A stretch of DNA of 64,000 bases, taken from IMG/VR virus record IMGVR_UViG_3300023177_000002, one strand, 5' to 3'. The DNA comes from a virus. The first letter of the stretch is position 1. The number at the start of each line of letters is the position of its first letter. The notes under the pieces are model-generated. The model was not told the DNA's origin. It made no database searches and was given only the letters and a program-made list of their open reading frames with translations. The translations under genes and the position numbers were made by a program. Of the stretch, positions 2,849-45,326 are shown one piece after another.

Positions 2849-4639
2849 TTACTCTGTGCCAGTTACTATTTCGACACGTCTGTTTTTGGCACGTCCTGTC
2901 TCTGTATCATTGTCAGCCACTGGCCGGGTTTGACCGTGTGCAACAATATTTAATCGACCTTCCGGGAATAAATCTTGGTATTTCCCTTCAAGCCAATACT
3001 GTACAGCTTGTGCGCGATCTGCCGATAAACGCATATTTCCTTCAGGAGTACCAGTATTATCAGTATGTCCATGAATTACAGCTTTCAATGACAAGCTGAC
3101 CGCAAGCTCATCTTTTAATGCTTCGAGAGTGTTCTCTTGGCCTGCACGTATAGCTGATCTACCGATTTCGAATTGAATACTATATTTACGTTTGCCGACA
3201 ACTTCTTTTAAGGTACTTCCCTTTTTGAACGTAAAACGATCTGCCGTAGAGGTATTTGTGTTGGTTTCTTTTGCAACAGCTAATACATACGAACCATCGA
3301 TAGCGATTTCTGGCGCTGGTACGCTTGGTACAAGTTTTGGATATTGCTGAATTACAACATTACCAAATGCGACGTAGGTAGATTTAAATAATCCCGAAGG
3401 ACCAAACAAAAGTACCATATCTGCAATATTGTTTGGTTTTGAACCGCCTAATTGCACTACTGAACCGTGTTTATTTAGTTCTTCTGTACCATCATGATAT
3501 CGTAACCAGTATTCAGCATCCTTCTCCTTATATACACTGGCCGAGATTTCTGCTGCGCGTTGTTTTGCGGCATCGTATCTTTTTATTTGATCTCCGGCTT
3601 CGCCAATAGCTCGAAGCATTCCTTCAACCATTTTACGATTGTCTTTGCACCACACATCGATCCCAATAATAGCATTTGGCATTTGCCCCGCATATTCACG
3701 TGTGCTTACGATATTTATGATATCTTGGTCGCATTGTTCGACGACATTCACATCACCAGGAGTCCAAGTAACTGTACCTTGAACTTTGATACGTTGTGTT
3801 TTTCCAGTTTTCTTGCCATTAATAACTACTGGACGATCTTCTTCATATCCCGCAATTAATTTAGCTGGCGCATCTAAAAAGTCATTAGCAGCAACCCAAT
3901 TTACAGCATTAGGATCGTAAGTGGTTTCATCAGGATTATTTGGAATGCCGTTGTCACCAGTATATTTCATTGCAATATTCCAGTCGCCATCTCGTAGATA
4001 ACCGGATATGACACAACCGCGCATAGACCCAGGATTCTTTTTCCACTCCGGTGGCCCCATCAATTTATCTTCACCATAAGAATAACCGGCTGAACCTATG
4101 ACTTTAGCACGATATTCAGTGCCGAGTTTTTCTAGTACTGGATTGAGTGCGGCTATAAATTGTGCAGCACCATCTCCCATTACAGCAACAAATGCAGGTT
4201 TTTCTGATGGATATGGATTTCCGTCTTTGAGCTCAGTTGCAAATGCCACTAGGTCTGCCTTCATTTTTTCACAATCATCTTGTCGCTCTAGTGTAATATT
4301 AACCCCGTACTTTTCCATAAGCGACCCCGATGTGGTAACAATACCACCATTGGCAAGCATCAGAGAAAACTGTGAATTCCAGGCCATTATTTCATACTTG
4401 AAAGTTGTGTTTGTAGCAGGTGCTGGGTCTGCCGACGGAAGCGGAAGTTCCGCTGCAATACTTTTTGTATTTGCAATATTTCCCAGATTTACCCTTTTTG
4501 CTACAACTGCCTTGGCGGGTTCTTTGCCGGGAATATATTGGTTAAGAGGTCCAAAAAATAACAAATAGAATAATGTTCCAACTATTGCCATAATAATAAG
4601 CAGCCTTCCGGCTGGGCGTATTCCGGTTCCTTCGTTCAT
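2849..4639 (-). CDS. membrane-anchored substrate-binding protein (NMT1/SsuA/TauA-like) fused to C-terminal OmpA-like peptidoglycan-binding domain
   Basis: N-terminal TM helix; central SBP-like region; C-terminal GHTDNTGTPEGNMRLSADRAQAV OmpA/MotB motif. Confidence 0.6.
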   Translation of the reverse strand: MNEGTGIRPAGRLLIIMAIVGTLFYLLFFGPLNQYIPGKEPAKAVVAKRVNLGNIANTKSIAAELPLPSADPAPATNTTFKYEIMAWNSQFSLMLANGGIVTTSGSLMEKYGVNITLERQDDCEKMKADLVAFATELKDGNPYPSEKPAFVAVMGDGAAQFIAALNPVLEKLGTEYRAKVIGSAGYSYGEDKLMGPPEWKKNPGSMRGCVISGYLRDGDWNIAMKYTGDNGIPNNPDETTYDPNAVNWVAANDFLDAPAKLIAGYEEDRPVVINGKKTGKTQRIKVQGTVTWTPGDVNVVEQCDQDIINIVSTREYAGQMPNAIIGIDVWCKDNRKMVEGMLRAIGEAGDQIKRYDAAKQRAAEISASVYKEKDAEYWLRYHDGTEELNKHGSVVQLGGSKPNNIADMVLLFGPSGLFKSTYVAFGNVVIQQYPKLVPSVPAPEIAIDGSYVLAVAKETNTNTSTADRFTFKKGSTLKEVVGKRKYSIQFEIGRSAIRAGQENTLEALKDELAVSLSLKAVIHGHTDNTGTPEGNMRLSADRAQAVQYWLEGKYQDLFPEGRLNIVAHGQTRPVADNDTETGRAKNRRVEIVTGTE

Positions 4640-6846: not shown

Positions 6847-6851
6847 ATAAG

Positions 6852-6925
6852 TGTCTGCGACGGGGAACGACCCCGTGTAACTAGTTTTAGAGACTAGTGC
6901 TTATTTCGTTCTCGGCCACGCAGAC
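6852..6925 (-). ncRNA. tRNA-like element with anticodon-like loop CUCUAAA (CUA)
   Basis: GTCTGCG...TCGCAGAC perfect 7-bp acceptor-like closure, 6-bp ACTAGT stem with 7-nt loop CTCTAAA, CGGGG/CCCCG arm with short loop; D-arm poor. Confidence 0.3.
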
Positions 6926-11157: not shown

Positions 11158-11724
11158 TTATAGATACAGCTTACGTTCGATTATATATTCACGCACCGAA
11201 TCAACTACTAATCCTTTTATTGTCAAATGATTTTTTATTCGATTACGAATATCCGTTGAACTCACTTGTATGTAGGGCATAGGTAGCGACCGAAACTTAT
11301 GTGCCATCAGAGGTGCAGTACTTCGTTCAGCCACTAAAATATGTTCGTGCCCGATAATCTCTACAAGTTCATTAGGGTCCTTCCAACGGTAAAAATCTAA
11401 TAATGAATCACCACCTAACAGCAAATATAAATCATCTTCTGGATAATGATCTTTAAATAATTTTACAGTGTCTATAGTATATGATACCTTATCACGGCAA
11501 ATCTCTGTTGTATCACAATAAGTACTTTCGCATTCGAACGCCGTTAATCGTGTCATAGCGACTATATGATGAGCTTCTGTATGTTTATGATCCTTTAATG
11601 GAGAAAGCGCATTAGGCACCATAGCTATACTATCCAAATGATATAATTCCTGAGCACTTCTACACAACCATAAATGTCCAGCGTGCGGCGGATCAAAACT
11701 GCCACCAAATATTCCTAGTTTCAT
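11158..11724 (-). CDS. nicotinamide/nicotinate mononucleotide adenylyltransferase (NMNAT/NadD family)
   Basis: N-terminal GGSFDPPHAGH nucleotidyltransferase (H/T)xGH motif. Confidence 0.75.
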   Translation of the reverse strand: MKLGIFGGSFDPPHAGHLWLCRSAQELYHLDSIAMVPNALSPLKDHKHTEAHHIVAMTRLTAFECESTYCDTTEICRDKVSYTIDTVKLFKDHYPEDDLYLLLGGDSLLDFYRWKDPNELVEIIGHEHILVAERSTAPLMAHKFRSLPMPYIQVSSTDIRNRIKNHLTIKGLVVDSVREYIIERKLYL

Positions 11725-12434
11725 GGGCGTGCTCGTAAAGTTGGTTCAAGCCACAAAGGTTTGTCATCAGAAAGTAATACGTCGCGCATTGATGGGTATC
11801 GATCAAACAATTCAAAAGTTCGTGTTGTACTTGTTTTGAACATTTTAAACAATTCGTCTTTTTTACGTTCCCAAGAAATACGATTATTCAATTTGTTTAA
11901 TAACTCACGATTACCAAAACATGCTTCTACTGATAAGTCGATCTGCATTTTTTTGGTTACGGCAAATCTTAACGCGCGTAGCATGCGTAAAGCATCTTCA
12001 TTGAAGCGATCTTCGGGCTTACCAACACATTTAATGAGATTATTTTGTATGTCAATCAACCCACCATGCGGGTCAATAAAAGGACGCTTTGGATCTTGCA
12101 TGTCGATCGCAATAGCATTCATTGTGAAATCACGTCTGGCTAGATCGTCATACAATGTGCCCAACTCAACAGTATCAGGTCTACGACCGTCTGAATAGTT
12201 ACCATCCTTTCGACATAACACAAAATCAGCATCACCAAAACCATCTATATGAGCACGGATAGTGAAGTATTCTGGGGTCTCGAGATATATTTTGCCTTTG
12301 GCAAGAATATAATTTCTCATTTCTTCCCAAGAAACTGCTACTACTGCATAATCAATATCTTTTGACTTAACGCGTAATATTAAATCTCTAACACTACCAC
12401 CAACTTGAAATATTCTGATCATTTGTTGTGCCAT
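11721..12434 (-). CDS. tRNA nucleotidyltransferase (CCA-adding enzyme family) head domain
   Basis: VGGSVRDLIL (GGxVRD) and RRDFTMNA motifs of polyA polymerase/CCA family; only 237 aa. Confidence 0.7.
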   Translation of the reverse strand: MAQQMIRIFQVGGSVRDLILRVKSKDIDYAVVAVSWEEMRNYILAKGKIYLETPEYFTIRAHIDGFGDADFVLCRKDGNYSDGRRPDTVELGTLYDDLARRDFTMNAIAIDMQDPKRPFIDPHGGLIDIQNNLIKCVGKPEDRFNEDALRMLRALRFAVTKKMQIDLSVEACFGNRELLNKLNNRISWERKKDELFKMFKTSTTRTFELFDRYPSMRDVLLSDDKPLWLEPTLRARP

Positions 12435-13808: not shown

Positions 13809-13809
13809 G

Positions 13810-13898
13810 CGGAAAGTAGGAGATTCGAACTCCTATGGCGCACTACACGCCTACTGGTTTTCGAGACCAGGCCCCGCACCAATGAGGTCAGACTTTCC
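13810..13898 (-). tRNA. tRNA-Ser (anticodon CGA), type II
   Basis: acceptor GGAAAGT/ACTTTCC, loop CTCGAAA, long variable arm, T-arm AGGAGTTCGAATCTCCT. Confidence 0.7.
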
Positions 13899-14149: not shown

Positions 14150-15364
14150 TCATTCTTCAACCACGCATTCTGTGTGTATTTTATCTGGTCGTAGTCGCTG
14201 AATTATTCCAAACTGTAATTTTCCAGAATCTTGAATATCCTGATATTCGGCTTCGATTACAAAGTTCTTTTTTACTTTACCAGAATTTAGATCCTTTGTA
14301 AGTTGTGCTAGTTCATCGTGAGTTAGTTTACCAGGGCCGACATATCCACGATCGATAATGGTGCCTTTGGAGTCGTATTGTGCCACAGCAAACTTCGCAT
14401 AAAAATTGGCGTGTTTTCCGGATTTTCCCTTAAGCCATTCTGTGACAAAAAAGTCATCAGTTTTGAGAAATTTGTATTTATAACTTCCCGCTCGATGTGC
14501 TTCTCCATCCATTGTATAAGAGATATATGATTTCTCACCTGGCACACGAAGGACAAAACCCTCCCAATTTTCTTCTTCGGCAAATTGAAGTAGCTCCTTC
14601 CAATCTGTGTATATGGGGGGCACGTTGATATTGATAGATTTGAGTAATTCGAATCGTTTAGTATATTCTCTATTTCCGACAAAATCTCCTTTGAAGAATA
14701 GGACATCGAAGGGGATACAGTTGAATTGTCCATCTTTTGATAACTCGTTATAACGCGATATAGCCTCCGCAGCATCATCTTTACGAACAACCTGCGCTAC
14801 ATGTCTAGGCGATTCACGTTTTGTTGTGTTGTTATAATATATAAATTCGGTTAATAAAAACGTTTCACTTGGTAGTATAGCCAATAATTTTTTTATAGGC
14901 GGTAACTGTATTAATACGTCTGTACGATCTTCCATACGACGTGAAAATACTTTTTCGGTAGTTTTGCCTTTAACCAAGAATAAGCAATGCCCATCGAATT
15001 TTCTTTGTCCATACGTATTTTTACCATCAATAATTGATTGTGGTGTTTTAGATATAGGTTTATTAGGACAAAATGCTTCTGGTATATTATCCAGATCAAT
15101 AACAGTTTGCACTATTGATGAGGTAACTGAAGGCATCTTTGTATCGTAACCTTCTTTTTTCTTAATTACGATCTTGGCTTCCATCTCTGCCAATGCCTGC
15201 TCTGCAGGTGTAGTTTCATTAGCTTTACCGATATTCATTCCCACACATACCTTCACAGTTTCTTGCTGTTTACCGTTTAATTGCCCCCAACGAGTATAGA
15301 ATTTTTCTTTTACAGTCCAGAATTCTAATACTTTAATTTTTCCTGTTTTGCTTTTTTGGTACAA
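14150..15364 (-). CDS. ATP-dependent DNA/RNA ligase (nucleotidyltransferase superfamily)
   Basis: motif I QRKFDGHCLF (KxDG), motif III-like LLTEFIYY, motif IV-like EGFVLRV, motif V-like YKYKFLK. Confidence 0.6.
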   Translation of the reverse strand: MYQKSKTGKIKVLEFWTVKEKFYTRWGQLNGKQQETVKVCVGMNIGKANETTPAEQALAEMEAKIVIKKKEGYDTKMPSVTSSIVQTVIDLDNIPEAFCPNKPISKTPQSIIDGKNTYGQRKFDGHCLFLVKGKTTEKVFSRRMEDRTDVLIQLPPIKKLLAILPSETFLLTEFIYYNNTTKRESPRHVAQVVRKDDAAEAISRYNELSKDGQFNCIPFDVLFFKGDFVGNREYTKRFELLKSININVPPIYTDWKELLQFAEEENWEGFVLRVPGEKSYISYTMDGEAHRAGSYKYKFLKTDDFFVTEWLKGKSGKHANFYAKFAVAQYDSKGTIIDRGYVGPGKLTHDELAQLTKDLNSGKVKKNFVIEAEYQDIQDSGKLQFGIIQRLRPDKIHTECVVEE

Positions 15365-19664: not shown

Positions 19665-20255
19665 TTATGAATCTTTGTCCAAACGATAATTACTTGTAGA
19701 GATATTCATTGACTTATAACTCTTCTGAAAACCATCTGTGTTTGCTGCAAAACACAATACGTTTTTGCTATCAAATCCATATGAACGTGTAGCATCATTT
19801 ATAGCATCCATATTTGCTGAGAAGAAATCGAATTTCCATCCAAGCGCTGTTTTTGCCGTAATGATATCTTTAATTTGATCTTTCGAAAACCTCACGCTTG
19901 AGTTTTCTTGCCCATCGGTTATGATTACCATAATCACGTGATCAGTTTTTTGATCGTCCGGAAGTTTTGCTTGACGATCCTCAACGCGTTTCACGGCATC
20001 ACCAATGGCATCTAACAATGCAGTATTGCCTCTTGGCACATAAGATATACGTGAAAGTGGTACAGCTTTTTGCAATTCTACACCATCTTCAAATACATCA
20101 TATTCAGTGTCAAATAAAACAGTAGTTATTTTTGCATCGCCAGGGAGTTTTTTCTGCTCATCAATAAATGTGTTATAACCACCTATTGTGTCAGCCACAA
20201 ATCCAGACATCGATCCCGAGCGATCGATTACAACAATTATTTCAGTAGGTTTCAT
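19665..20255 (-). CDS. von Willebrand factor type A (vWA) domain protein
   Basis: IVVIDRSGSMSG MIDAS DxSxS motif. Confidence 0.65.
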   Translation of the reverse strand: MKPTEIIVVIDRSGSMSGFVADTIGGYNTFIDEQKKLPGDAKITTVLFDTEYDVFEDGVELQKAVPLSRISYVPRGNTALLDAIGDAVKRVEDRQAKLPDDQKTDHVIMVIITDGQENSSVRFSKDQIKDIITAKTALGWKFDFFSANMDAINDATRSYGFDSKNVLCFAANTDGFQKSYKSMNISTSNYRLDKDS

Positions 20256-21464: not shown

Positions 21465-21628
21465 ATCTTTTCTTTTTGTTAATGTGAATTTACGTACTGC
21501 TAAAGTAATATAAGTATCTGAAAGAGTTAAAATTTTACGACAATTACAACAAATGTTGGCACTTAATTTCCGTATGACTGTTGTTCCACAACACACAGTT
21601 TTTTCTTCATATAAGTGATATTTCATAG

Positions 21629-21700
21629 CAGGGCGTACAGGACTTGAACCCGTAGTCACGGTTTTGGAGACCGTTGGTTTACCAATTAACCGAACGCCCT
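21629..21700 (-). tRNA. tRNA-Trp (anticodon CCA)
   Basis: acceptor AGGGCGT/ACGCCCT perfect, loop CTCCAAA, T-arm ACGGGTTCAAGTCCTGT. Confidence 0.75.
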
Positions 21701-21753: not shown

Positions 21754-21832
21754 GCTGAAGCGTGCTCGTTACAGCTTACCTTAGAGAATGAGCCATAATA
21801 AAATTAAATTACGAGCAAATGGTCATATACCA

Positions 21833-21870
21833 TCTTTATACTGTTGCTCTACCGACTGAGCTATCTCTCC
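21833..21870 (-). tRNA. 5' half of split/permuted Phe-like tRNA (acceptor 5' strand, D-arm, anticodon 5' strand)
   Basis: GGAGAGA TA GCTCAGTCGGTAGAGC A ACAGT ATAAAGA; D-arm identical to the tRNA-Phe at 35291-35364. Confidence 0.5.
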
Positions 21871-21972
21871 CAACCAGAAAGATAGTTATAGGAGGCTTCT
21901 TTTATATTGTCATGTCCTATACCATAAAATGAATTTAATCATTCAACAAAAGGGACCAACTATCTTTCAGGG

Positions 21973-22012
21973 TGGAGAGAGTAGGATTCGGACCTACGAC
22001 ACACAGTTCTTT
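21973..22012 (-). tRNA. 3' half of split/permuted Phe-like tRNA (anticodon 3' strand, T-arm, acceptor 3' strand), located UPSTREAM of its 5' half
   Basis: AAAGA ACTGT GTGTC GTAGG TCCGAAT CCTAC TCTCTCC A; ACTGT pairs with ACAGT and TCTCTCC pairs with GGAGAGA of the 5' half. Confidence 0.5.
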
Positions 22013-22040
22013 GATAACGATATACTTCGGCTCGTAAAAT

Positions 22041-23438
22041 TTATTTTCTAAGTGCGGCAATCATATCTGTTTTATGCTTAAGTAATATATCACTTACACC
22101 TACTTTATAGATATGTGGGTTTTCAAATCTAGTGAATTCTTTTCCTAAGCTCTGCAGACGACTTTCCGCATAAAGTCTTGATGTACGTACGATAGGATTA
22201 GTTATTACAACCTTTCCATTTTCCACGCACTTTATTAAAAGCGCTTCGTTTTTTAGATCTCCAACATCTGATAATCTATCTGGATAAACAGGATCATACA
22301 ACTTCTTCGGTGGAGGCATTCCTGCGCAAGTAATACCGTCGCCATAAAAAGTGCCGTCGTTATTATAATAACGATACAGATCTTTTGGTCCGGGTAATGT
22401 AGCTTTTTCAGGATTATCTGAAAATTTCATTTTCGGCTGTCCTTGAATCGATGATAGTTTATATACACCATCATGAGCTCCAGCGCCAGCACCGATAATT
22501 AAATTTGTGCCTACACCATAAATATCAATAGGAGCGTCCTGTTCTTCTAGACTACGAATTACATATTCATCTAATTGATTAGATGCAACTATTTTTACAT
22601 AAGACAAATTGGCCTCATCAAGAAGATTTCTTGCTTTTTTGCTTAGGTACGCAAAGTCGCCGCTATCTAATCGGATACCATGTAATTTACATCCGTTGGC
22701 TTCAAGTTCTTTAGCTACGATTATTGCATTCGGCACACCACTTTTTAATGTATCATAAGTATCAACTAGCAACACTGTGTTGTGCGGATATTCTTTAGCA
22801 AACGCACGAAATGCAGTTAACTCGTTTTCAAAACCAAGTATCCAGGCATGAGCCATTGTACCTACCGCTAAGAGATCGTATTTCTTTGCGGCATAAACAT
22901 TAGAAGTTGAAGTTGCACCACCAATAATAGCGGCTTTACTCGCCAAAATACCTCCCAACCCCTGTGCACGTCGTAATCCCATATCAATTATAGGTCGTTC
23001 GTTTACAACTTGTTTTATACGTGCTGCTTTAGTTGCGATCAATGTACTGAAGTTGATAATGTTGAGCAACAGAGTTTCTAATAATTGACACTCTAGCCAA
23101 CCACCTTCAATTCGCAGTATAGGTTCATTTGGAAAAACAACTTCGCCCTCACGCACAGAATAGATATCGCCTTTGAATTGAAAGTCACGTAAATAACTCA
23201 AAAAGCCTGCGTGAAAAATTCCTTGATGAAATAAATACGTTGTATCTTCTTCGGTAAATTTCCAATTCTTTAAGATATCTAACAACTCACTTAATCCGGC
23301 AAATAATGCATAACCGCCGCCGTATGGGTTACGTCGATAAAAATAATCATACGTGGCTCGGTCATTATGGCGGCTCATCTGGAAATATCCTTGTGCCATA
23401 ACAAGTTGATACATATCTGTGTATAACCCGTAGTTCAT
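22041..23438 (-). CDS. nadV: nicotinamide phosphoribosyltransferase (NAMPT/NadV)
   Basis: 465-aa protein with NAMPT-like sequence throughout (MNYGLYTDMYQLVMAQGYF..., GTMAHAWI..). Confidence 0.75.
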   Translation of the reverse strand: MNYGLYTDMYQLVMAQGYFQMSRHNDRATYDYFYRRNPYGGGYALFAGLSELLDILKNWKFTEEDTTYLFHQGIFHAGFLSYLRDFQFKGDIYSVREGEVVFPNEPILRIEGGWLECQLLETLLLNIINFSTLIATKAARIKQVVNERPIIDMGLRRAQGLGGILASKAAIIGGATSTSNVYAAKKYDLLAVGTMAHAWILGFENELTAFRAFAKEYPHNTVLLVDTYDTLKSGVPNAIIVAKELEANGCKLHGIRLDSGDFAYLSKKARNLLDEANLSYVKIVASNQLDEYVIRSLEEQDAPIDIYGVGTNLIIGAGAGAHDGVYKLSSIQGQPKMKFSDNPEKATLPGPKDLYRYYNNDGTFYGDGITCAGMPPPKKLYDPVYPDRLSDVGDLKNEALLIKCVENGKVVITNPIVRTSRLYAESRLQSLGKEFTRFENPHIYKVGVSDILLKHKTDMIAALRK

Positions 23439-26562: not shown

Positions 26563-26564
26563 AG

Positions 26565-26645
26565 TCGTCTCTGAGAGACTCGAACTCTCATGCTATTCGC
26601 GACGCGTTCTGGACGCGTTGTGTCTACCAATTCCACCAAGAGACG
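26565..26645 (-). tRNA. tRNA-Leu (anticodon CAG), type II
   Basis: acceptor CGTCTCT/AGAGACG perfect, stem ACGCG/CGCGT, loop TCCAGAA, variable CGCGAATAGCAT. Confidence 0.65.
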
Positions 26646-27768: not shown

Positions 27769-28257
27769 TCATGCCAAATCCAATTGCAAAAATACTCTAG
27801 TTGTCATTAATAACGTACCCAGAATATTATACTTGTATTGAGTTTTGCAGTAATCACACGTACATGCTCCCCAGTAATTATCATGCCAAGTATTACCTTC
27901 TTCAAGAAAAAGATTACCCGTCGCTATTAACTTTTTTCGTAATTCGGGGTAATTAGTGAACTTGGCCGCCAACAACTGGGCCATAACAGTTTGTTTTATA
28001 AGTTCCCAATCAGGACGACGATCAACTATTCGTCCTAACTGTTTTGCTTTACCCGGAGTCGGTGCAACTCGAATTTCTTCGCGCTGCGCAGGATTCAATG
28101 TTTTGGCCGCCTGAAAAGCATGTTCAACCGTAGGATATTCAGCGCCATCATATGTGATGGGGGCTGGATAGAAATTTGATAAGAATTCCCACTCGTCCTT
28201 AAAACTTGTTATCGAATACAAATTTTGTTGCTCCTTCGTGTCCATGTATTTGCTCAC
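27769..28257 (-). CDS. NADAR / YbiA-like N-glycosidase domain protein
   Basis: FLSNFYPAP ... YPTVEHAFQAAK ... conserved YbiA/DUF1768 pattern. Confidence 0.6.
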   Translation of the reverse strand: MSKYMDTKEQQNLYSITSFKDEWEFLSNFYPAPITYDGAEYPTVEHAFQAAKTLNPAQREEIRVAPTPGKAKQLGRIVDRRPDWELIKQTVMAQLLAAKFTNYPELRKKLIATGNLFLEEGNTWHDNYWGACTCDYCKTQYKYNILGTLLMTTRVFLQLDLA

Positions 28258-28915
28258 AATCCTCGAATGTGTTATAAACAGTGACTGATGCTATTTTTCC
28301 ATACCATGTTACTACGCATTTACCGTTTGTAAATATAACTCCTTCTCCTACTATACCTTTTCCAGAAACACCGCTAACATCTTTTTCACGACTCAATTTG
28401 AATGTCCGTGGAATCACACTTTTCATTAAAGCGTCTAATGTTTCCCACATTTTTTCGTTACCATCGTTCGCAAAGAATAAGCGAGCTTTAAATTCTGGAT
28501 ACTCCTTCATATACATTGTCAGCTGCGGAGACTTTTCAGCCTTGGAATACCGCATGTTTGCTATACGGTCAGCTAATTTTAAACGTGTGAATCGCAAATG
28601 ACCCGCCGTTTTATTGTACATTGCTTCTTTGCGTTCCTTACGATTCTTACCTTCTCCATCAGTAACCGCTAAAACCAATGCAGTAGTTATCATACCAAAT
28701 TCTTCTTGCAGTTCCTCTTGCGAAGTTTTTGTGTCTTCTAATATATCATGTAAGAATCCTGCCGCTAACATCGATGGGTCGGTTTCGCCAAATTCCATTA
28801 AAACATGATAAACGTTATCAAGATGTACTATAATATCCACTGGCAATGTACCATATTTATGTCCTGCATGTCGTTTCTCTGCAAAGCTTCGTGCCTTTTT
28901 TACTAGTTCGTGCAT
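28199..28915 (-). CDS. HD-domain (p)ppGpp hydrolase (small alarmone hydrolase, SpoT/Mesh1-like) with extra C-terminal domain
   Basis: RHAGHKYGTLPY..H ... LHDILEDT HD motifs of RelA/SpoT hydrolase domain; start placed at MHELVKK. Confidence 0.6.
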   Translation of the reverse strand: MHELVKKARSFAEKRHAGHKYGTLPVDIIVHLDNVYHVLMEFGETDPSMLAAGFLHDILEDTKTSQEELQEEFGMITTALVLAVTDGEGKNRKERKEAMYNKTAGHLRFTRLKLADRIANMRYSKAEKSPQLTMYMKEYPEFKARLFFANDGNEKMWETLDALMKSVIPRTFKLSREKDVSGVSGKGIVGEGVIFTNGKCVVTWYGKIASVTVYNTFEDCEQIHGHEGATKFVFDNKF

Positions 28916-28917
28916 TG

Positions 28918-29529
28918 TTAAACCTCTATTGTTGTGTATTGTGCCTTTCCTAAACACTGAAAGGCAGTTTTGTGAATTATAAATTTTCGTGTATGATGGA
29001 AATGACCGAAACACCAATAAGATGGATTATGAAGTTCAAACATGGCTTGCAATAATTGATTTGTTCTGGAAGGTTGATTATACGCATGTTTTCCGTATAA
29101 ATATATCAGCATACTTATCTTTGCTATTTCCGGACAATCATGTGAAAGCACTATTCGTGGTTTTGACACCTCGTATAATTTTAAGGCTTCATAACATTGT
29201 CGCATTGACAGTTCCTCATCATACCACCAAGATACACCAGGAATTCTACTGTCCCAATCTGTCGACCAACCACCCCCTAGATAGAATATATCCCATTCTT
29301 CGATATATCCAAATTCTCCAAGATAATTAGGATGTGTTTTACATAGTTCTGGATTATCATGATTACCGCGGATAAATTTATGTTGAGACGGCAACTCAGG
29401 TAAAAATGTATTTGGGAATCCATGGGCCATATCGCCTAATTGAATTGAAGGTCCATCAATCTTCTTGATCATAGGCAAATATATTTCTGTGTATAATCCA
29501 TGTATATCACCAATTATATGTATTGTCAT
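28918..29529 (-). CDS. calcineurin-like metallophosphoesterase (Ser/Thr phosphatase or ApaH-like)
   Basis: GDIHG, GDMAHG, GNHDNPE motifs. Confidence 0.7.
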   Translation of the reverse strand: MTIHIIGDIHGLYTEIYLPMIKKIDGPSIQLGDMAHGFPNTFLPELPSQHKFIRGNHDNPELCKTHPNYLGEFGYIEEWDIFYLGGGWSTDWDSRIPGVSWWYDEELSMRQCYEALKLYEVSKPRIVLSHDCPEIAKISMLIYLYGKHAYNQPSRTNQLLQAMFELHNPSYWCFGHFHHTRKFIIHKTAFQCLGKAQYTTIEV

Positions 29530-29552
29530 AAAGTGATGCCCCTTGAGCGTAG

Positions 29553-30044
29553 TTAGCTAATAGTTATTTCTTTTTTGTCGATGCTTGGACTTGTTTTTGG
29601 AAGTTCGATAGTAAGAACTCCACTATCCATATTAGTTTTGATGGCATCTACATCTACATCGGCTGGAAGCGCCCAGGAACGATGAAACGAGGAAAAATGT
29701 ACTTCTTGAGCAAGATAACGTGTATCTTTCTTAGAAGCCTTCCCAGATTTCTCACCTTTTACAGTAAGAAACTTTCTTCCTTTATCATTTGTAACTTCTA
29801 ATTTAATTTGATCTTTTCCATAACCAGGCAAAGCCGCTTCTATGACAAATTCCTTGTCTGTTTCGGAAATGTTTACTTTTGGAAATGCTCGACCAATAGG
29901 TTCAAAACATAGTTCCAAATTTGCTGCCTCCTCAAAGGCTTTTCTAATATCATTAAGCCAATATTCTATATCAGAGGCAAAGTCTCTTTTTAAAATAGGT
30001 AGCATATATTTTCTCCTTATGAATGAAAATACGCTAAGGGGCAT
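29553..30044 (-). CDS. small heat-shock protein (Hsp20/alpha-crystallin)
   Basis: alpha-crystallin core FVIEAALPGYGKDQIKLEV ... TVKGEK; start trimmed to avoid tRNA-Arg. Confidence 0.7.
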   Translation of the reverse strand: MPLSVFSFIRRKYMLPILKRDFASDIEYWLNDIRKAFEEAANLELCFEPIGRAFPKVNISETDKEFVIEAALPGYGKDQIKLEVTNDKGRKFLTVKGEKSGKASKKDTRYLAQEVHFSSFHRSWALPADVDVDAIKTNMDSGVLTIELPKTSPSIDKKEITIS

Positions 30045-30048
30045 CTTG

Positions 30049-30122
30049 TACTCTCGGCGAGACTCGAACTCGCAACGCTCACGCTTAGAAGGCGCAGCTC
30101 TGTCCAATTGATGTACGAGAGC
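30049..30122 (-). tRNA. tRNA-Arg (anticodon TCT)
   Basis: acceptor GCTCTCG/CGAGAGT, loop CTTCTAA, T-arm GCGAGTTCGAGTCTCGC. Confidence 0.65.
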
Positions 30123-30130
30123 ATAATTTA

Positions 30131-30616
30131 TTAACAGGCTAAGTTTATATTCAGATACTCAGAGTCGCCAGTTACATATAAAAAACTGCCGAAGCGCCCC
30201 AATTCAGTGTCTGAGTAATTATCTGCTTCCTCTTCCGTAGCAAACTCTATTTCTCCAGTGATCAATGGCCATTTCCTCGAATGTTGATATACATCTAATT
30301 CTAATATAAGACCAGATTCCAGTGGAAAGTGATAACGTGTTTTGTAAACACGTCGACCAATTGTTAAGGGCCAAATTGCAATAAACACATTTTCATCTAT
30401 TTGACATTGTGCTTCGTCCCGAACTACACCCATTCCTAATTTATAATTTATTTTATAATCTTTTGTATTATCTTCATGTACTCGTTGAGTAAACCTAATC
30501 CCATCTATTGTATAACCCTGCATTAATTTTATTGATTTACTAGCTTGAGCCAGCTGTGGAAGCACAACATTCTCATCAAAGAACAAAAATTTATATTCAA
30601 TTTCTTTTGGTATCAT
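30131..30616 (-). CDS. hypothetical protein
   Basis: ORF. Confidence 0.4.
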   Translation of the reverse strand: MIPKEIEYKFLFFDENVVLPQLAQASKSIKLMQGYTIDGIRFTQRVHEDNTKDYKINYKLGMGVVRDEAQCQIDENVFIAIWPLTIGRRVYKTRYHFPLESGLILELDVYQHSRKWPLITGEIEFATEEEADNYSDTELGRFGSFLYVTGDSEYLNINLAC

Positions 30617-31173
30617 CCAAATTCAGCCCCTTCTTCATAACCTCGTTGTTCATTTTTTCCTATATTGAATATTTGATCTTTTCCTGCACGTACTCGTTTG
30701 GCATATCTATCATATAAAGTAAGATAAACAGCCGCTGCCAAGTTTGTGCAATGTTTCGTGGGTATAGTGACAATTCGATGGCAGTGTTGCATATGTACTC
30801 GTTCAATACCACCATCTTCTGGACCAAAAACATACACTGCATTATATGGATGTTCAAAGTCTAATAAGTTTTCAGAGTTTTCTCGCACTTCAATTGCAAT
30901 AGGAATTGCTTTTTCAAACATATCAAACGGATAATCAAATTGTGTGAGTGTAACTTCTTTATAACCCTTCATCCGTTCTTCTCTTGGTAAACGATAATCT
31001 TTTGTTGGTGTCATTGATACACGATTGCCGGTGTACCAAACCTGGGCTATACCAAAACAAGATGCAGCACGTATTATTGCGCCAACGTTTCTTGGATATT
31101 TAGGATTAATTAGTACGATCGAAGGAGTTACCCCGATCTTCTTATGGTTTTTACCGCAGATTAGTTGTTCCAT
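30613..31173 (-). CDS. SpoU-class RNA 2'-O-methyltransferase (TrmH/TrmL-like, likely tRNA)
   Basis: NVGAIIRAASCFG ... VFGPEDGGI ... IPT...NLAAAVYLTLYDRY SPOUT motifs. Confidence 0.65.
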   Translation of the reverse strand: MEQLICGKNHKKIGVTPSIVLINPKYPRNVGAIIRAASCFGIAQVWYTGNRVSMTPTKDYRLPREERMKGYKEVTLTQFDYPFDMFEKAIPIAIEVRENSENLLDFEHPYNAVYVFGPEDGGIERVHMQHCHRIVTIPTKHCTNLAAAVYLTLYDRYAKRVRAGKDQIFNIGKNEQRGYEEGAEFG

Positions 31174-31781
31174 TAACTATTTATTATCTTATCTGCTAGA
31201 TTATCTGAATATAAAGCATGTACTTTATTTAACCACTGCAATGTCTTAGCTTTTGCCATATTGTAGTGCGTCCCCTCCCCATCTTTGCCGACGACTCCTT
31301 CAAAAGTGATTCCTTCTATTTCATTATAATAGATCTTAGTGGTAAATTCTTTATTCCAGCGATAATATCCAAGATATTTTGGTATCAGTACTTTACCGTC
31401 AAATAATTTTATGAACATCTTAGGAGATACGAATCCTTTTTTATCTAAGGCCACATCAAACACCGTCAGTGTCTTCACATCATCTTTTTCATGTTGTCCA
31501 GCAAAACTTCTTTTCCCAGCAAATTCTGCAAACACTACCGCATGTTCAAATCGGTTATCAATCATAATTTGGGTAAGCGGGAATAACAACGTTTCGTGAA
31601 ATAAAGGAACTGCTGATCCAAATACGTCATCTGATTGGTCAAATAATCTTGTGCGCGTACCGAATTTAAACCAACCACGTTTTTTGCTGTATTCAAAACG
31701 TAAGTTACTACCATCTATTTTATCGAACACGTGTGCATTAAAAGATGGCACATCTTTAGGAATTTCTGGATATTGTTTCAT
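31173..31781 (-). CDS. hypothetical protein
   Basis: ORF. Confidence 0.4.
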   Translation of the reverse strand: MKQYPEIPKDVPSFNAHVFDKIDGSNLRFEYSKKRGWFKFGTRTRLFDQSDDVFGSAVPLFHETLLFPLTQIMIDNRFEHAVVFAEFAGKRSFAGQHEKDDVKTLTVFDVALDKKGFVSPKMFIKLFDGKVLIPKYLGYYRWNKEFTTKIYYNEIEGITFEGVVGKDGEGTHYNMAKAKTLQWLNKVHALYSDNLADKIINS

Positions 31782-34974: not shown

Positions 34975-35039
34975 ATATCGCGGGTAATTTAAGCGACGTC
35001 AGTGTTTTTAATTTAGCTACTACGTATTTTCATACGCGC

Positions 35040-35112
35040 TAGGACTTGAACCTAGAGTGTTATATTTTTGAGATATATGCTTTAACCGATAACTAACATC
35101 TATCGACCCGCT
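35040..35112 (-). pseudogene. degenerate tRNA-like element (T-arm and CAA anticodon-like hairpin but no acceptor pairing)
   Basis: CTAGGTTCAAGTCCTAG T-arm, TATAT/ATATA stem with loop CTCAAAA; 5'/3' ends do not pair. Confidence 0.3.
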
Positions 35113-35290: not shown

Positions 35291-35364
35291 GACAACCGGA
35301 ATCGAACCAGTGCATACCCAGGTCTTCAGCCTAGAGCTCTACCGACTGAGCTATGTCTCCATGT
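35291..35364 (-). tRNA. tRNA-Phe (anticodon GAA)
   Basis: acceptor GGAGACA/TGTCTCC perfect, D-arm GCTCAGTCGGTAGAGC, loop CTGAAGA, T-arm ACTGGTTCGATTCCGGT. Confidence 0.8.
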
Positions 35365-35584
35365 CATTTAATTGTTCATTAATGACTTTTTTATCTTTTC
35401 TGCGTTGTATAGTATGTTCGCGATATTTGATAGCTTGTTCATATTTACACATACTACAACTATCTTTCAACCAATGATTTTTAAACAACCTATTCGTTTG
35501 ATTATTATACCACCACTTAAATCTATCCCAAACTCTTTTACGTTTTAAAACCTTTAATTCATCTTTGTCTCTGTTGTGTTTCAT
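35351..35584 (-). CDS. hypothetical small basic protein (3' end overlaps tRNA-Phe)
   Basis: ORF trimmed to MKHNRD start. Confidence 0.25.
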   Translation of the reverse strand: MKHNRDKDELKVLKRKRVWDRFKWWYNNQTNRLFKNHWLKDSCSMCKYEQAIKYREHTIQRRKDKKVINEQLNDMET

Positions 35585-44996: not shown

Positions 44997-45326
44997 TTAT
45001 ATTAAAATATCTTGAAATCCTAAATACTCATTTATTTTTAAAACTACCTGATCCACCATCTGAAGGTTCTGCAAGTTTTCACAGAATTCCAACTTCACTG
45101 GTTTCTTGTGGGTTAATGCAACGCTTATTAAGTTCTTTAATACCGGCGCCTGAACATCTTTACCAACTGCTATATGAAGATAGGTATTGCCAAGATGCAC
45201 AATAATGGTGTCTGACGATGATGTATATTCGTATACTTTGCCGACACGTTTGCCAATCAACTTTTTGTAGTCGTCGGAATGTTGCCCAAGTGAATAAACC
45301 GATTTAAAGAATGTTTTATATATCAT
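44997..45326 (-). CDS. hypothetical protein
   Basis: ORF. Confidence 0.35.
   Translation of the reverse strand: MIYKTFFKSVYSLGQHSDDYKKLIGKRVGKVYEYTSSSDTIIVHLGNTYLHIAVGKDVQAPVLKNLISVALTHKKPVKLEFCENLQNLQMVDQVVLKINEYLGFQDILI

What the first reader, a model, noticed from the sequence alone, without database searches (positions are those of the whole stretch)
21833..22012. Apparent circularly permuted (split) Phe-like tRNA gene with its 3' half upstream of its 5' half
On the minus strand, the T-arm/acceptor half at 22012-21973 is ...AAAGA-ACTGT-GTGTC-GTAGG-TCCGAAT-CCTAC-TCTCTCC-A. It is followed by a 102-nt spacer and then, at 21870-21833, by GGAGAGA-TA-GCTCAGTCGGTAGAGC-A-ACAGT-ATAAAGA.

The two halves complement each other perfectly at the acceptor (7/7) and the anticodon stem (5/5). 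Both carry the same AAAGA at the junction, so they overlay to a 7-nt loop AUAAAGA.

The spacer ends form an 11-bp helix (GAAAGATAGTT / AACTATCTTTC) coaxial with the acceptor stem. The leader TTACGAGC and the trailer GCTCGTAA are complementary, like the leader-trailer helix of permuted pre-tRNAs in red algae and archaea.

The D-arm equals that of the tRNA-Phe at 35291, with anticodon AAA instead of GAA and C55 in the T-loop. To my knowledge permuted tRNA genes are not described in bacteria or phages. This would require a circularisation and re-cleavage pathway. Alternatively it is a rearranged tRNA remnant.
Basis: seen in the sequence. Interest (0 to 1): 0.85.

Follow-up and report, generated by a model that had tools for sequence, protein, structure and literature searches.

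The report
Phage YrlA-like tRNA-mimic RNA, not tRNA
The "back-to-front tRNA" is real and conserved, but it is a phage copy of a known class of tRNA-shaped non-coding RNAs (YrlA-type Y RNAs) rather than a split tRNA gene; what is unusual is that no gene for the usual partner protein, Ro60, lies nearby.

Summary
On the minus strand, 22012-21973 carries the 3' half of a cloverleaf and 21870-21833 the 5' half, with a 102-nt spacer between them.

The interpretation does not hold. Four diverged relatives keep the element at the same place, 3' of a NAPRTase gene and 5' of tRNA-Trp. In them the acceptor stem is closed by a 5-20 nt loop. No anticodon loop is conserved. The leader and trailer form a covarying two-helix rod (P1, P2).

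This is the published architecture of YrlA-type Y RNAs, which the literature already calls "circularly permuted tRNAs with closed acceptor stems".

A covariance model built only from phage elements next to Ro60 genes matches the window's element end to end (61.3 bits, E about 1e-12). The published mycobacteriophage ET08 YrlA scores 63.1 bits.

Three things differ from the published class. No Ro60/TROVE gene lies within the window plus a further 10 kb on its left. The element sits in a tRNA and RNA-repair island. The window's copy has a 102-nt insertion and a 7-bp acceptor followed by A-CC, which suggests RNase P/CCA nicking as in M. smegmatis.

Verdict: a new variant of a known kind, of moderate interest.

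The parts
21809..22037 (-). Whole YrlA-like tRNA-mimic RNA, from the P1 5' strand to the P1 3' strand (229 nt including the 102-nt spacer).
   Evidence: MFE fold z = -4.4. Model R1 hits 22046-21799 at 61.3 bits, E about 1e-12, covering model positions 1-157. 100% identical in 6 strain contigs.
22030..22037 (-). P1 5' strand, UUACGAGC. It starts 3 nt after the NAPRTase stop codon (22043-22041).
   Evidence: Pairs 8/8 with 21816-21809. Among five homologs, P1 is 100% paired and 6 of 7 pairs change on both sides.
21809..21816 (-). P1 3' strand, GCUCGUAA.
22025..22031 (-). GCCGAAG. This matches the published GNCGAAN0-1G / 'CGAA bulge' motif proposed to contact Ro60, and it spans the top of P1 and the P1/P2 internal loop.
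   Evidence: Sequence. Motif as defined in PMC4201824 and PMC12135203. Only the CG is conserved in the four relatives. L129 and L022 share GCCGA(A/C)G-N4-UCNGUUAUC.
22018..22024 (-). P2 5' strand, UAUAUCG.
   Evidence: Pairs with 21832-21826 (UGGUAUA) in the R1 alignment. P2 is 91% paired in the family, and one pair changes from U-A to C-G.
21826..21832 (-). P2 3' strand, UGGUAUA. It is followed by the U-rich 3' loop UGACCAUUU (21825-21817).
   Evidence: The 3' loop resembles GACCUGGUUCUC and AUUUAUUCUC of Ro60-adjacent elements.
22013..22018 (-). GUUAUC box. It contains the YUAY that begins the V region in YrlA RNAs.
   Evidence: Shared as GUUACUUC or GUUAUC with Ro60-adjacent and other viral elements. 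YUAY is described in PMC4201824.
22003..22012 (-). A-rich internal-loop strand AAAGA (22012-22008), then the 3' strand of the short 'anticodon-like' stem, ACUGU (22007-22003).
   Evidence: The stem pairs 5/5 with 21844-21840. The three inner pairs all covary. A-rich strands are present at this spot in all relatives.
21833..21844 (-). 5' strand of the anticodon-like stem, ACAGU (21844-21840), then the A-rich internal-loop strand AUAAAGA (21839-21833).
   Evidence: No U33 or anticodon is conserved in the homologs.
21981..22002 (-). Variable region GUGUC (22002-21998) and T-arm GUAGG-UCCGAAU-CCUAC (21997-21981), with C instead of U at position 55.
   Evidence: The T-stem is 100% paired and 3 of 5 pairs covary. 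C55 is shared with L002/L132 only; L003, L130 and L133 have U55.
21971..21980 (-). Acceptor 3' strand UCUCUCC (21980-21974), then A-C-C (21973-21971), a tRNA-like discriminator plus CC.
   Evidence: All 7 acceptor pairs change on both sides in the family. N-CC(A) after the acceptor strand is enriched among viral elements: 7 of 37 have NCC and 4 of 37 NCCA, against about 2.3 and 0.6 expected.
21871..21972 (-). 102-nt lineage-specific insertion in the acceptor-closing loop. It has 11-bp terminal inverted repeats (21968-21958 and 21887-21877).
   Evidence: It is absent from all four relatives, whose loops are 5-20 nt. There is no other copy in the window or in any fetched locus.
21846..21870 (-). 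Acceptor 5' strand GGAGAGA (21870-21864), U8 A9, and D-arm GCUC-AGUCGGUA-GAGC (21861-21846).
   Evidence: The D-stem changes to GACU/AGUC in L130 and L133, which is 3 compensated pairs.
22041..23438 (-). Context: nicotinate/nicotinamide phosphoribosyltransferase gene. The element begins 3 nt after its stop codon, and this position is syntenic in the relatives.
   Evidence: Pfam NAPRTase_N E = 8e-43. Synteny in L002, L003, L131, L132 and L133; in L130 a GH18 gene is inserted between them.
21628..21700 (-). Context: tRNA-Trp, 108 nt downstream of the element. It is in the same position in the relatives.
   Evidence: ARAGORN.

Best explanation
The locus encodes a non-coding RNA of the YrlA type, a Y-RNA-like tRNA mimic. 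It is not a decoding tRNA.

Structure. The RNA's 5' and 3' ends pair into a rod with these parts:
- helix P1;
- an internal loop that carries GCCGAAG;
- helix P2;
- an A-rich loop;
- a short 5-bp stem.
The rod carries a tRNA-like head made, in this order, of a variable region, a T-arm, an acceptor stem and a D-arm.

Shown here: the architecture, its conservation and covariation, and its statistical membership in the RNA family that lies next to Ro60 genes in other phages.

Inferred from published work on YrlA and Y RNAs:
- The rod docks a Ro60-type or other RNA-binding protein.
- The L-shaped head docks a tRNA-recognising or RNA-degrading and repair factor (PNPase in the characterised cases).
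- The RNA therefore acts as a tether or gate in RNA turnover or repair during infection.

Further inference for this copy:
- It is probably co-transcribed with the NAPRTase mRNA and tRNA-Trp/Cys.
- It has a 7-bp acceptor followed by A-CC. RNase P and 3' trimming/CCA addition therefore probably open the acceptor loop and remove the 102-nt insertion.
- That would leave a two-piece RNA held together by the four helices, as shown for M. smegmatis YrlA.
- The Ro60 partner, if any, must be encoded elsewhere in the roughly 215-kb phage genome or by the host.

The confidence given applies to the identification as a YrlA-class tRNA-mimic RNA rather than a tRNA gene. The Ro60-tether mechanism itself is less certain, at about 0.5.
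For: 1. Four diverged homologs sit at the same site and keep the order T-arm, closed acceptor stem, D-arm, with closing loops of 5-20 nt.

2. Every helix covaries in the five-member family. 96.3% of cells are paired, against 31-46% for slid controls. Pairs with changes on both sides: P1 6 of 7, acceptor 7 of 7, D 3 of 4, T 3 of 5.

3. A viral-contig scan found the same module widely, often closed by GNRA or UUCG tetraloops. It also lies next to bona fide Ro60 (TROVE E = 2e-51 and vWA_Ro60 E = 2e-56) and next to divergent Ro60-like ORFs (hhalign 96.8%; HMM).

4. Model R1 was built only from 13 Ro60-adjacent elements.
- It matches the window's element over all 157 positions at 61.3 bits, E about 1e-12.
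- The window's 35 tRNAs score at most 27 bits.
- tRNA dimers score at most 52 bits.
- The published mycobacteriophage ET08 YrlA scores 63.1 bits.

5. Rfam's own YrlA model (RF02553) hits homolog L003 at 36.1 bits, E = 1.5e-4. That is comparable to ET08 at 37.4 bits and to the Ro60-adjacent L055 and L087 at 34-38 bits.

6. Shared sequence boxes:
- GCCGAAG, which matches GNCGAAN0-1G and the CGAA bulge;
- GUUAUC, which contains YUAY;
- L002's V region CUAAACGAGAGGUC and its GCUAAAA, which are nearly identical to those of the Ro60-adjacent L059 (PMC4201824; PMC12135203).

7. The tertiary-interaction nucleotides of tRNA are present: U8, A14, G15:C48, G18 G19, G53:C61, U54:A58 and C56.

8. There is a precedent for nicking. 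M. smegmatis YrlA has a 7-bp acceptor, is cut by RNase P and receives CCA in vivo. N-CC(A) after the acceptor strand is enriched in the phage elements.
Against: - No Ro60/TROVE ORF was found in any frame of the 64-kb window, even at E <= 10. None was found in the 10 kb beyond its left edge or in +-10 kb around the four relatives. In the 2014 survey nearly all YrlAs lay within 4 kb of Ro60.
- By my mapping of L004, about 150 kb of the roughly 215-kb source contig was not visible, so absence from the genome is not shown.
- Rfam RF02553 gives no hit on the window's copy. No phage element tested reaches Rfam's 69-bit gathering score, the published ET08 YrlA included.
- The GNCGAA motif is not conserved in the relatives. 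Only its CG is.
- U55, the TruB target, is C in this copy.
- Expression, processing and binding partners are all untested.
Confidence: 0.8

Rival explanations
1. Ro60-independent tRNA mimic. The RNA has the same fold, but in this phage lineage it works without Ro60. It could be a scaffold, decoy or regulator for tRNA-binding enzymes of the surrounding tRNA and RNA-repair island (RNA ligase, CCA-adding enzyme, RNase Z-like, SpoU, Thg1-like), or for host tRNA-targeting defences.
For: - No Ro60-like ORF lies near any of the five family members.
- A second tier of R1 hits (57-97 bits) mostly lacks a Ro60-like ORF despite flanks of at least 3-10 kb, and many of them sit among tRNA genes.
- The window's island encodes RNA_ligase, Metallophos, HD, PolyA_pol-type NTase, SpoU and an MBL-fold protein.
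- L003 and L131 add a Thg1-like gene.
- A different 640-750-aa protein unrelated to Ro60 sits directly upstream of elements in 5 loci.
Against: - Widening the Ro60 HMM moved several 'orphans' (L081, L092, L116, L122) into the Ro60-associated group. Divergent or distant Ro60 genes can be missed.
- About 150 kb of the genome is unseen.
- The rod still carries the Ro60-type GCCGAAG/CGAA bulge.
- No alternative partner is conserved near the window's family, except a generic VWA protein of about 200 aa.
Confidence: 0.2
2. Cis-acting processing and stability element. The tRNA-like fold at the very 3' end of the NAPRTase mRNA would be an RNase P/RNase Z entry site. It would separate the mRNA from the downstream tRNA-Trp/Cys and leave a structured, exonuclease-resistant 3' end, as the mascRNA element does for MALAT1.
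For: - The element always begins 0-10 nt after the stop codon of the upstream ORF. That ORF is NAPRTase, or the inserted GH18 gene in L130. In L002 the stop codon lies inside P1.
- tRNA-Trp follows within about 100-140 nt in the window and L002, and within a few nt in L003.
- No promoter or terminator signal lies between them.
Against: - The conserved, covarying P1/P2 rod with its Ro60-type bulge is not needed for an RNase P site.
- Most family members have short closed acceptor loops, which the YrlA literature regards as poor RNase P substrates.
- The same RNA family occurs upstream of Ro60 genes, where it is known to act in trans.
Confidence: 0.1
3. One reading: a genuine circularly permuted tRNA-Phe(AAA) gene. 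Cleavage in the leader and trailer, ligation (for example by the phage RNA ligase), and opening of the acceptor loop by RNase P/Z with CCA addition would together yield a decoding tRNA.
For: - The window's copy is unusually tRNA-like. It has a 7-bp acceptor, A73-CC, a 5-bp stem, and an overlay that gives a 7-nt loop with U33 and G37.
- The phage encodes an RNA ligase and CCA-adding-type enzymes.
- The possibility has been raised in the literature for YrlAs.
Against: - The homologs lack a conserved anticodon loop, U33 and anticodon. L003 and L130 have acceptor loops of 5-7 nt with no NCCA.
- Selection acts on P1/P2, which a spliced-out leader-trailer would need only as a bulge-helix-bulge. Here the junction is a 10 x 8-nt A-rich internal loop, not a 3-4-3 bulge-helix-bulge.
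- No splicing-type endonuclease is known in bacteria.
- Position 55 is C.
- An A34 Phe anticodon is essentially unused in nature (my own knowledge), and a normal tRNA-Phe(GAA) is present.
Confidence: 0.04
4. A non-functional scar: a rearranged or duplicated tRNA remnant, an att-site duplication, or a tRNA disrupted by a small mobile insertion.
For: - The 102-nt spacer has 11-bp terminal inverted repeats and is specific to this lineage.
- The acceptor and D-arm are close to the phage's own tRNA-Phe.
Against: - The permuted order is conserved with compensatory changes in all helices across phages whose NAPRTases are only 62-67% identical.
- The same module is found in many unrelated viral contigs.
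- The spacer has no other copy anywhere in the data.
Confidence: 0.02

Closest known systems
[quoted passage not shown] 2014, PMC4201824; crystal structure in bioRxiv 10.1101/312249. This includes mycobacteriophage ET08 YrlA and M. smegmatis YrlA.
   Same: - The order is T-arm, acceptor stem-loop, D-arm, carried on a stem formed by the RNA's two ends.
- The tRNA tertiary nucleotides are present.
- The GNCGAAN0-1G motif and YUAY box are present.
- A model built from Ro60-adjacent phage elements gives 61.3 bits here and 63.1 bits for ET08.
- Like M. smegmatis YrlA, it has a 7-bp acceptor followed by a tRNA-like 3' end signature.
   Different: - No Ro60/TROVE gene lies within the roughly 74 kb examined, nor within +-10 kb in the relatives.
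- It sits 3' of an NAD-salvage gene inside a tRNA island.
- Position 55 is C.
- A 102-nt insertion lies in the acceptor loop.
- It scores below Rfam's gathering threshold, as do all the phage YrlAs tested here.
Yrl1 and Yrl2 of Thermus phage phiLo, with phiRo60 and host PNPase (PMC12135203)
   Same: It is a phage-encoded Y-like RNA with a 5'-3' stem flanking an internal bulge that carries CGAA.
   Different: The phiLo Yrls lie directly upstream of the phage Ro60 gene and were shown to bind it. Here there is no adjacent Ro60 and no binding data.
Circularly permuted tRNA genes of Cyanidioschyzon merolae and some archaea (Soma et al. 2007, as cited)
   Same: The 3' half lies upstream of the 5' half. 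The acceptor is initially closed. A stem is formed by leader and trailer.
   Different: Those precursors carry a bulge-helix-bulge cut by the splicing endonuclease, are ligated into a circle, and yield a decoding tRNA with a conserved anticodon loop. Here there is no bulge-helix-bulge and no conserved anticodon loop. Most homologs have no NCCA-compatible acceptor loop, and no such endonuclease is known in bacteria.
Two-piece tmRNA from circularly permuted ssrA genes in alpha-proteobacteria and some cyanobacteria (Keiler, Shapiro & Williams 2000; my own knowledge, not checked here)
   Same: It is a bacterial precedent for a permuted tRNA-like gene. Its transcript is cut in the loop that joins the acceptor strands, which leaves a two-piece RNA with a free CCA end.
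   Different: tmRNA carries an mRNA-like tag reading frame and is aminoacylated. Nothing comparable is present here, and ARAGORN reports no tmRNA.
mascRNA / MALAT1-type 3'-terminal tRNA-like structures (cited)
   Same: It is a tRNA-like fold immediately 3' of a longer transcript and a possible RNase P substrate.
   Different: Those have normal, unpermuted tRNA topology and no Y-type rod.

Membership tests
YrlA / Y RNA-like (RF02553; Chen et al. 2014) | A tRNA-like domain in the order variable region, T-arm, acceptor stem(-loop), D-arm, with stems supported by covariation. | tested here: met
   Pairs with double-sided changes: acceptor 7 of 7, T 3 of 5, D 3 of 4.
YrlA / Y RNA-like (RF02553; Chen et al. 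2014) | Conserved tRNA tertiary-interaction nucleotides: U8:A14, the G15:C48 Levitt pair, G18 G19 with positions 55 and 56, U54:A58 and G53:C61. | tested here: met
   All are present by inspection except that U55 is C. L003, L130 and L133 have U55.
YrlA / Y RNA-like (RF02553; Chen et al. 2014) | A long stem formed by the 5' and 3' ends, with an internal bulge carrying GNCGAAN0-1G (CGAA), the proposed Ro60 contact. | tested here: met
   P1 and P2 covary. GCCGAAG lies at 22031-22025. Caveat: the relatives keep only the CG.
YrlA / Y RNA-like (RF02553; Chen et al. 2014) | A YUAY at the start of the V region. | tested here: met
   UUAU lies at 22017-22014, within the GUUAUC box shared with other viral elements.
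YrlA / Y RNA-like (RF02553; Chen et al. 2014) | A significant match to a covariance model of Ro60-linked YrlAs. | tested here: met
   R1 was built from 13 Ro60-adjacent phage elements. It gives 61.3 bits, E about 1e-12, over the full length. The positive control, the published ET08 YrlA, gives 63.1 bits. tRNA dimers give at most 52 bits.
YrlA / Y RNA-like (RF02553; Chen et al. 2014) | Reaches Rfam's gathering score (69 bits) for RF02553. | tested here: not met
   There is no hit on the window. Homolog L003 scores 36.1 bits. The published ET08 YrlA (37.4 bits) and the Ro60-adjacent elements (34-52 bits) also fail, so this criterion does not discriminate for phage YrlAs.
YrlA / Y RNA-like (RF02553; Chen et al. 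2014) | Encoded within about 4 kb of a Ro60 (TROVE) gene on the same strand. | tested here: not met
   No TROVE or Ro60-like ORF was found in the window, in L134 or L135, or in the relatives' +-10 kb. The 366-aa neighbour is PcfJ-like, with an hhalign probability of 0.2% against TROVE. About 150 kb of the genome is unseen.
YrlA / Y RNA-like (RF02553; Chen et al. 2014) | [quoted passage not shown] | not testable with these tools
   This needs immunoprecipitation, Northern blots and in vitro assays.
Circularly permuted tRNA genes (C. merolae type) | The 3' half lies upstream of the 5' half, with complementary acceptor and anticodon-stem strands. | tested here: met
Circularly permuted tRNA genes (C. 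merolae type) | A bulge-helix-bulge motif at the leader-trailer junction for the splicing endonuclease. | tested here: not met
   The fold shows a 10 x 8-nt A-rich internal loop followed by P2 and P1. It does not show 3-nt bulges around a 4-bp helix.
Circularly permuted tRNA genes (C. merolae type) | A reconstructable 7-nt anticodon loop (U33, anticodon, R37) conserved among orthologs. | tested here: not met
   Only the window's copy overlays to AUAAAGA. L003, L130, L132 and L133 do not.
Circularly permuted tRNA genes (C. merolae type) | An intervening sequence between the acceptor strands that can be removed to leave N73 and a CCA end in the orthologs. | tested here: not met
   L003 has the loop CUACG and L130 has AAGAUGU. 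Only the window (A-CC) and L132 (G-CCA) have a tRNA-like 3' end signature.
Circularly permuted tRNA genes (C. merolae type) | A mature joined tRNA and a circular intermediate detected. | not testable with these tools
   This needs RNA-seq or cRT-PCR.
Canonical tRNA (RF00005) | A contiguous cloverleaf detected by tRNA finders. | tested here: not met
   ARAGORN and Rfam tRNA report nothing at 21800-22046. Only the sequence joined in silico is called tRNA-Phe(aaa).

The most novel reading that the evidence does not exclude
In this lineage the YrlA-like RNA has moved further toward a real tRNA. [quoted passage not shown] The phage's own RNA ligase would then join cleaved leader and trailer ends. 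The product would be a functional, aminoacylatable tRNA-Phe-like molecule or a two-piece tRNA. That would be the first permuted tRNA maturation pathway in a bacterial virus.

A less radical version is that the RNA is a Ro60-independent tRNA mimic serving the phage's tRNA and RNA-repair island. I give that version about 0.2-0.3 probability, and it is listed among the rivals.
Probability: 0.04. Interest if true: 0.85.

Novelty: new variant of a known kind. Interest (0 to 1): 0.4.

Why it matters
The finding turns an apparently unprecedented "split tRNA gene" into a recognisable member of the YrlA tRNA-mimic class. That matters for annotation. These elements are invisible to tRNA finders and fall below Rfam's threshold in phages. 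They can also be overwritten by spurious ORFs, as in mycobacteriophage ET08, where the hypothetical CDS gp219 overlaps the YrlA.

It also points to something not covered by the 2014 survey, which searched only genomes containing TROVE. YrlA-like RNAs are common in uncultured large phages. A sizeable subset sits inside tRNA arrays with no Ro60 gene nearby. Some of them, including this one, keep a 7-bp acceptor followed by N-CC(A), which should make them RNase P and CCA-enzyme substrates.

If these RNAs act without Ro60, or with a host Ro60, they would be a route by which phages manipulate host RNA decay, repair or tRNA-directed defences.

Tried and rejected
- **Ro60 identity of the adjacent 366-aa + 196-aa VWA gene pair.** Their sizes sum to roughly that of Ro60. 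Pfam calls the 366-aa protein PcfJ-like, and its few homologs are all PcfJ-like. phmmer against PDB sequences finds nothing. hhalign against the phage TROVE profile gives 0.2%. The single-sequence AlphaFold model was unusable, with pLDDT 36, so I ran no fold search. The VWA protein shows only generic VWA similarity. Rejected.

- **Close relatives in GenBank phages.** The DNA search finds none apart from a tRNA-Trp match. The best NAPRTase hits are only 44% identical.

- **First T-loop/D-arm pattern scan of viral contigs**. It gave one chance hit, L001, which nevertheless turned out to carry an unrelated YrlA-like element.

- **Genome and metagenome scans with a leader pattern**. They returned 93 loci. 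R1 found no element in any of them, so all were chance matches.

- **The spacer as a repeated or mobile element.** There are no other copies. One extra 11-mer at 35458-35468 shares nothing else with the spacer.

- **Promoter or terminator inside or beside the element.** Nothing above background on the minus strand.

- **Many 'closed acceptor' hits of the viral scan** were tandem tRNAs with similar acceptor stems (the L012 family and others). I removed them using ARAGORN overlap and R1 score.

- **The 640-750-aa neighbour of some orphan elements.** It is not Ro60-related (hhalign 0.1%) and has no homolog in the window.

- **The Annual Review on bacterial Ro60** (PMC10870794) is not held in the library.
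Full report
**1. The observation**

On the minus strand, 22012-21973 reads AAAGA-ACTGT-GTGTC-GTAGG-TCCGAAT-CCTAC-TCTCTCC-A. A 102-nt spacer follows. Then 21870-21833 reads GGAGAGA-TA-GCTC-AGTCGGTA-GAGC-A-ACAGT-ATAAAGA.

- The acceptor strands pair 7/7 and the inner stem pairs 5/5.
- The spacer ends are an exact 11-bp inverted repeat.
- The leader TTACGAGC pairs with the trailer GCTCGTAA.
- An unconstrained fold of 22045-21800 returns exactly this permuted cloverleaf, with z = -4.4.
- ARAGORN calls the halves joined in silico tRNA-Phe(aaa). Positions 1-25 match the window's tRNA-Phe(GAA) in 24 of 25 positions, with a compensated acceptor difference.
- ARAGORN and Rfam's tRNA model see nothing at the genomic locus.

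**2. Context**

The window is part of a large phage; strain contigs are about 215 kb. It holds 35 ARAGORN tRNAs on one strand, interspersed with tRNA and RNA-repair-type genes:
- RNA_ligase (PF09414), SpoU methylase, a metallophosphoesterase and HD proteins;
- a PolyA_pol-type (CCA-adding) nucleotidyltransferase;
- an MBL-fold protein and an ATP-dependent ligase;
- NAD-salvage genes.

The element starts 3 nt after the stop codon of a NAPRTase gene (22041-23438) and ends 108 nt before tRNA-Trp.

**3. Homologs decide the question**

Phage NAPRTases that are 62-67% identical led to four further distinct copies of the element at the same position: L002 (the same sequence as in L132 and L131), L003, L130 and L133.

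- All keep the order variable region, T-arm, acceptor stem, D-arm.
- The two acceptor strands are joined by only 5-20 nt. L003 has CUACG and L130 has AAGAUGU. Only L132 reads G-CCA.
- None has a reconstructable anticodon loop. Beyond a short 3-5-bp stem, both strands are A-rich and then pair again as two helices, P2 and P1.
- On a structural alignment of the five sequences, 96.3% of cells are paired, against 31-46% when partners are slid. Double-sided changes occur in 6 of 7 P1 pairs, 7 of 7 acceptor pairs, 3 of 4 D-stem pairs and 3 of 5 T-stem pairs.

Selection therefore maintains a closed rod plus a tRNA-like head, not a tRNA precursor. The 'shared AAAGA' is the A-rich internal loop. The 102-nt spacer exists only in the window's lineage, has no other copy, and is invariant in six strain contigs.

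**4. The class**

A scan of viral contigs for a T-loop followed at short distance by this D-arm returned 120 loci. After removing tandem tRNAs, dozens carried a T-arm, 7-bp closed acceptor and D-arm module, often sealed by GAAA, UUCG, GUAA or GCGA tetraloops.

The most widely recurring neighbour, on the same strand, is Ro60.
- One cluster is bona fide: TROVE E = 2e-51 and vWA_Ro60 E = 2e-56.
- A larger cluster is divergent Ro60: hhalign 96.8%, E = 3e-10.
- HMMs built from these find Ro60-like ORFs in 21 of the loci.

This is the published signature of YrlA Y RNAs: a T-arm, then an acceptor stem-loop, then a D-arm; a GNCGAAN0-1G motif near the 5' end; a YUAY before the V region; and a location within 4 kb of Ro60 (PMC4201824). 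[quoted passage not shown] A 2025 study of Thermus phage phiLo gives the Y-like hallmark as a 5'-3' stem flanking a bulge with CGAA.

**5. Formal membership test**

I aligned 13 Ro60-adjacent elements, none from the window's family, and confirmed a six-helix structure on them. Cells were 85.5% paired, against 38-45% for slid controls. I then built covariance model R1 from that alignment.

| Target | R1 score |
|---|---|
| Window element 22046-21799, all 157 positions, spacer treated as a 101-nt insertion | 61.3 bits, E about 1e-12 |
| Window's genuine tRNAs | at most 27 bits |
| tRNA dimers elsewhere | at most 52 bits |
| Published mycobacteriophage ET08 YrlA (positive control) | 63.1 bits |

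Rfam's RF02553 misses the window's copy. It scores homolog L003 at 36.1 bits, E = 1.5e-4. That is like ET08 at 37.4 bits and the Ro60-adjacent elements at 34-52 bits. All are below its 69-bit gathering score, so that threshold does not discriminate for phage YrlAs.

Sequence boxes also agree. GCCGAAG lies at 22031-22025 and GUUAUC at 22018-22013. L002's V region CUAAACGAGAGGUC ... GCUAAAA is nearly identical to that of the Ro60-adjacent L059.

**6. What does not fit**

No TROVE or Ro60-like ORF exists in any frame of the 64-kb window at E <= 10. None exists in the 10 kb to its left or the short extension to its right, nor within +-10 kb of the four relatives.

The neighbouring 366-aa protein is PcfJ-like, not TROVE. 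The 196-aa VWA protein that follows the element in the window and in L130-L133 shows only generic VWA similarity.

About 150 kb of the genome could not be inspected, so Ro60 elsewhere in the phage, or in the host, remains possible.

Across the viral loci, elements scoring 57-97 bits mostly lack a nearby Ro60-like ORF, and many sit among tRNA genes. Widening the HMM did reassign four of them to divergent Ro60.

**7. Mechanism**

Shown: the fold, its conservation, and its family relationship.

Inferred from the YrlA and Y RNA literature: the rod is a protein-docking module and the L-shaped head docks a second factor. The RNA would thus tether or gate RNA-decay or repair activities during infection.

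Specific to this copy: the 7-bp acceptor followed by A-CC parallels M. smegmatis YrlA, which RNase P cuts and the CCA enzyme extends in vivo. N-CC(A) after the acceptor strand is over-represented in the phage elements: 7 of 37 have NCC and 4 of 37 NCCA. I therefore expect the 102-nt insertion to be removed, leaving a two-piece RNA held together by four helices.

**8. Rivals**

- Ro60-independent action (0.2).
- A cis-acting 3'-end or processing element for the NAPRTase-tRNA transcript (0.1).
- A true permuted tRNA matured by ligation (0.04).
- A non-functional scar (0.02).

**9. Verdict**

The element is a new variant of a known kind: a YrlA-like tRNA mimic in a phage tRNA island without a linked Ro60. 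Interest is moderate.

Noticed in passing
window 6851-6925 (-): A tRNA with anticodon CTA, labelled tRNA-Pyl by ARAGORN, which makes it an amber-suppressor-type tRNA. It may indicate TAG recoding in this phage. If so, ORF calls made with table 11 could be truncated.
   Followed up: no
window 431-36587 (-), with ORFs at 11158-12434, 14150-15364, 28199-31781, 45323-46072 and 47228-48295: A tRNA island of about 36 kb with 35 tRNAs, interleaved with an RNA maturation and repair toolkit: RNA_ligase PF09414, SpoU methylase, Metallophos, HD_4, PolyA_pol head, a separate HD + PolyA_pol_RNAbd protein, an MBL-fold (RNase Z-like) protein and an ATP-dependent ligase. It also carries NAD salvage genes (NAPRTase and an NMNAT-like protein).
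   Followed up: partly
window 35031-35103 (-): Rfam's tRNA model scores 31.1 bits here, just above its gathering score, between tRNA-Tyr and tRNA-Asn. ARAGORN does not report this one. Conversely, Rfam at gathering misses three ARAGORN calls (431-513, 13809-13898 and 26564-26645).
   Followed up: no
window 19665-20255 (-); L130 13533-14132; L131 13936-14532; L132 12935-13516; L133 13959-14582: A standalone VWA protein of about 200 aa with a DxSxS MIDAS motif lies 0.5-2.4 kb downstream of the YrlA-like element in the window and in L130-L133. It is the best, though non-significant, hit of the Ro60 HMMs (E 0.002-0.4), through the vWA part only. It is 38% identical to part of a 357-aa protein in L056, a locus that also has Ro60.
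   Followed up: partly
L026, L028 (4926-7184), L053, L070 and L115 (3710-5947): A 640-750-aa protein with no Pfam hit, unrelated to Ro60 by hhalign, sits directly upstream and on the same strand as YrlA-like elements in five viral loci with four different acceptor sequences. It is a candidate alternative partner protein.
   Followed up: partly
L055 970-1128 and 1370-1539; also L029, L049, L083, L087, L115 and L116: Many viral loci carry two tandem R1-positive elements, most of them next to Ro60. This is reminiscent of the YrlA/YrlB and Yrl1/Yrl2 pairs in the literature.
   Followed up: no
L136 (Mycobacterium phage ET08, NC_013650.1) 3682-3848, compared with CDS gp219 at 3791-3964: The published ET08 YrlA is not annotated in the RefSeq record, and the hypothetical CDS gp219 partly overlaps it.
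   Followed up: no
L001 3240-3847 (-): A full-length ROOL RNA (RF03087, 340.8 bits) lies about 2 kb from a YrlA-like element and several tRNAs on a 130-kb viral contig.
   Followed up: no
L003 5249-5992; L131 13230-13985: Thg1-like (tRNA 3'-5' nucleotidyltransferase family) genes lie close to the element in two relatives. The window's phage has none at the equivalent position.
   Followed up: no
viral loci L001, L030, L092, L116, L122, L123 and L127: A subclass of the elements has a conserved ACAGCAA just after the P1 5' strand instead of a CGAA-type bulge. Four loci carrying YrlA-like elements (L081, L092, L116, L122), three of them in this subclass, lie near a divergent Ro60-like protein family that only an iterated HMM detects.
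   Followed up: partly
window 35458-35468 (-): A third exact copy of the spacer's 11-mer GAAAGATAGTT lies about 100 nt upstream of the genuine tRNA-Phe, inside what looks like a small ORF. No further similarity; probably coincidence.
   Followed up: yes
window 50960-51820 (-): A LAGLIDADG-type homing-endonuclease-like ORF (PF14528, E = 6e-8).
   Followed up: no
NAPRTase 22041-23438 (-): Below the phage clade (62-67% identity), the nearest homologs at 55-58% are from Balneolaceae (Gracilimonas, Balneola, Fodinibius) and other Bacteroidota-group bacteria. This is a weak hint about the host lineage or the gene's origin.
   Followed up: no
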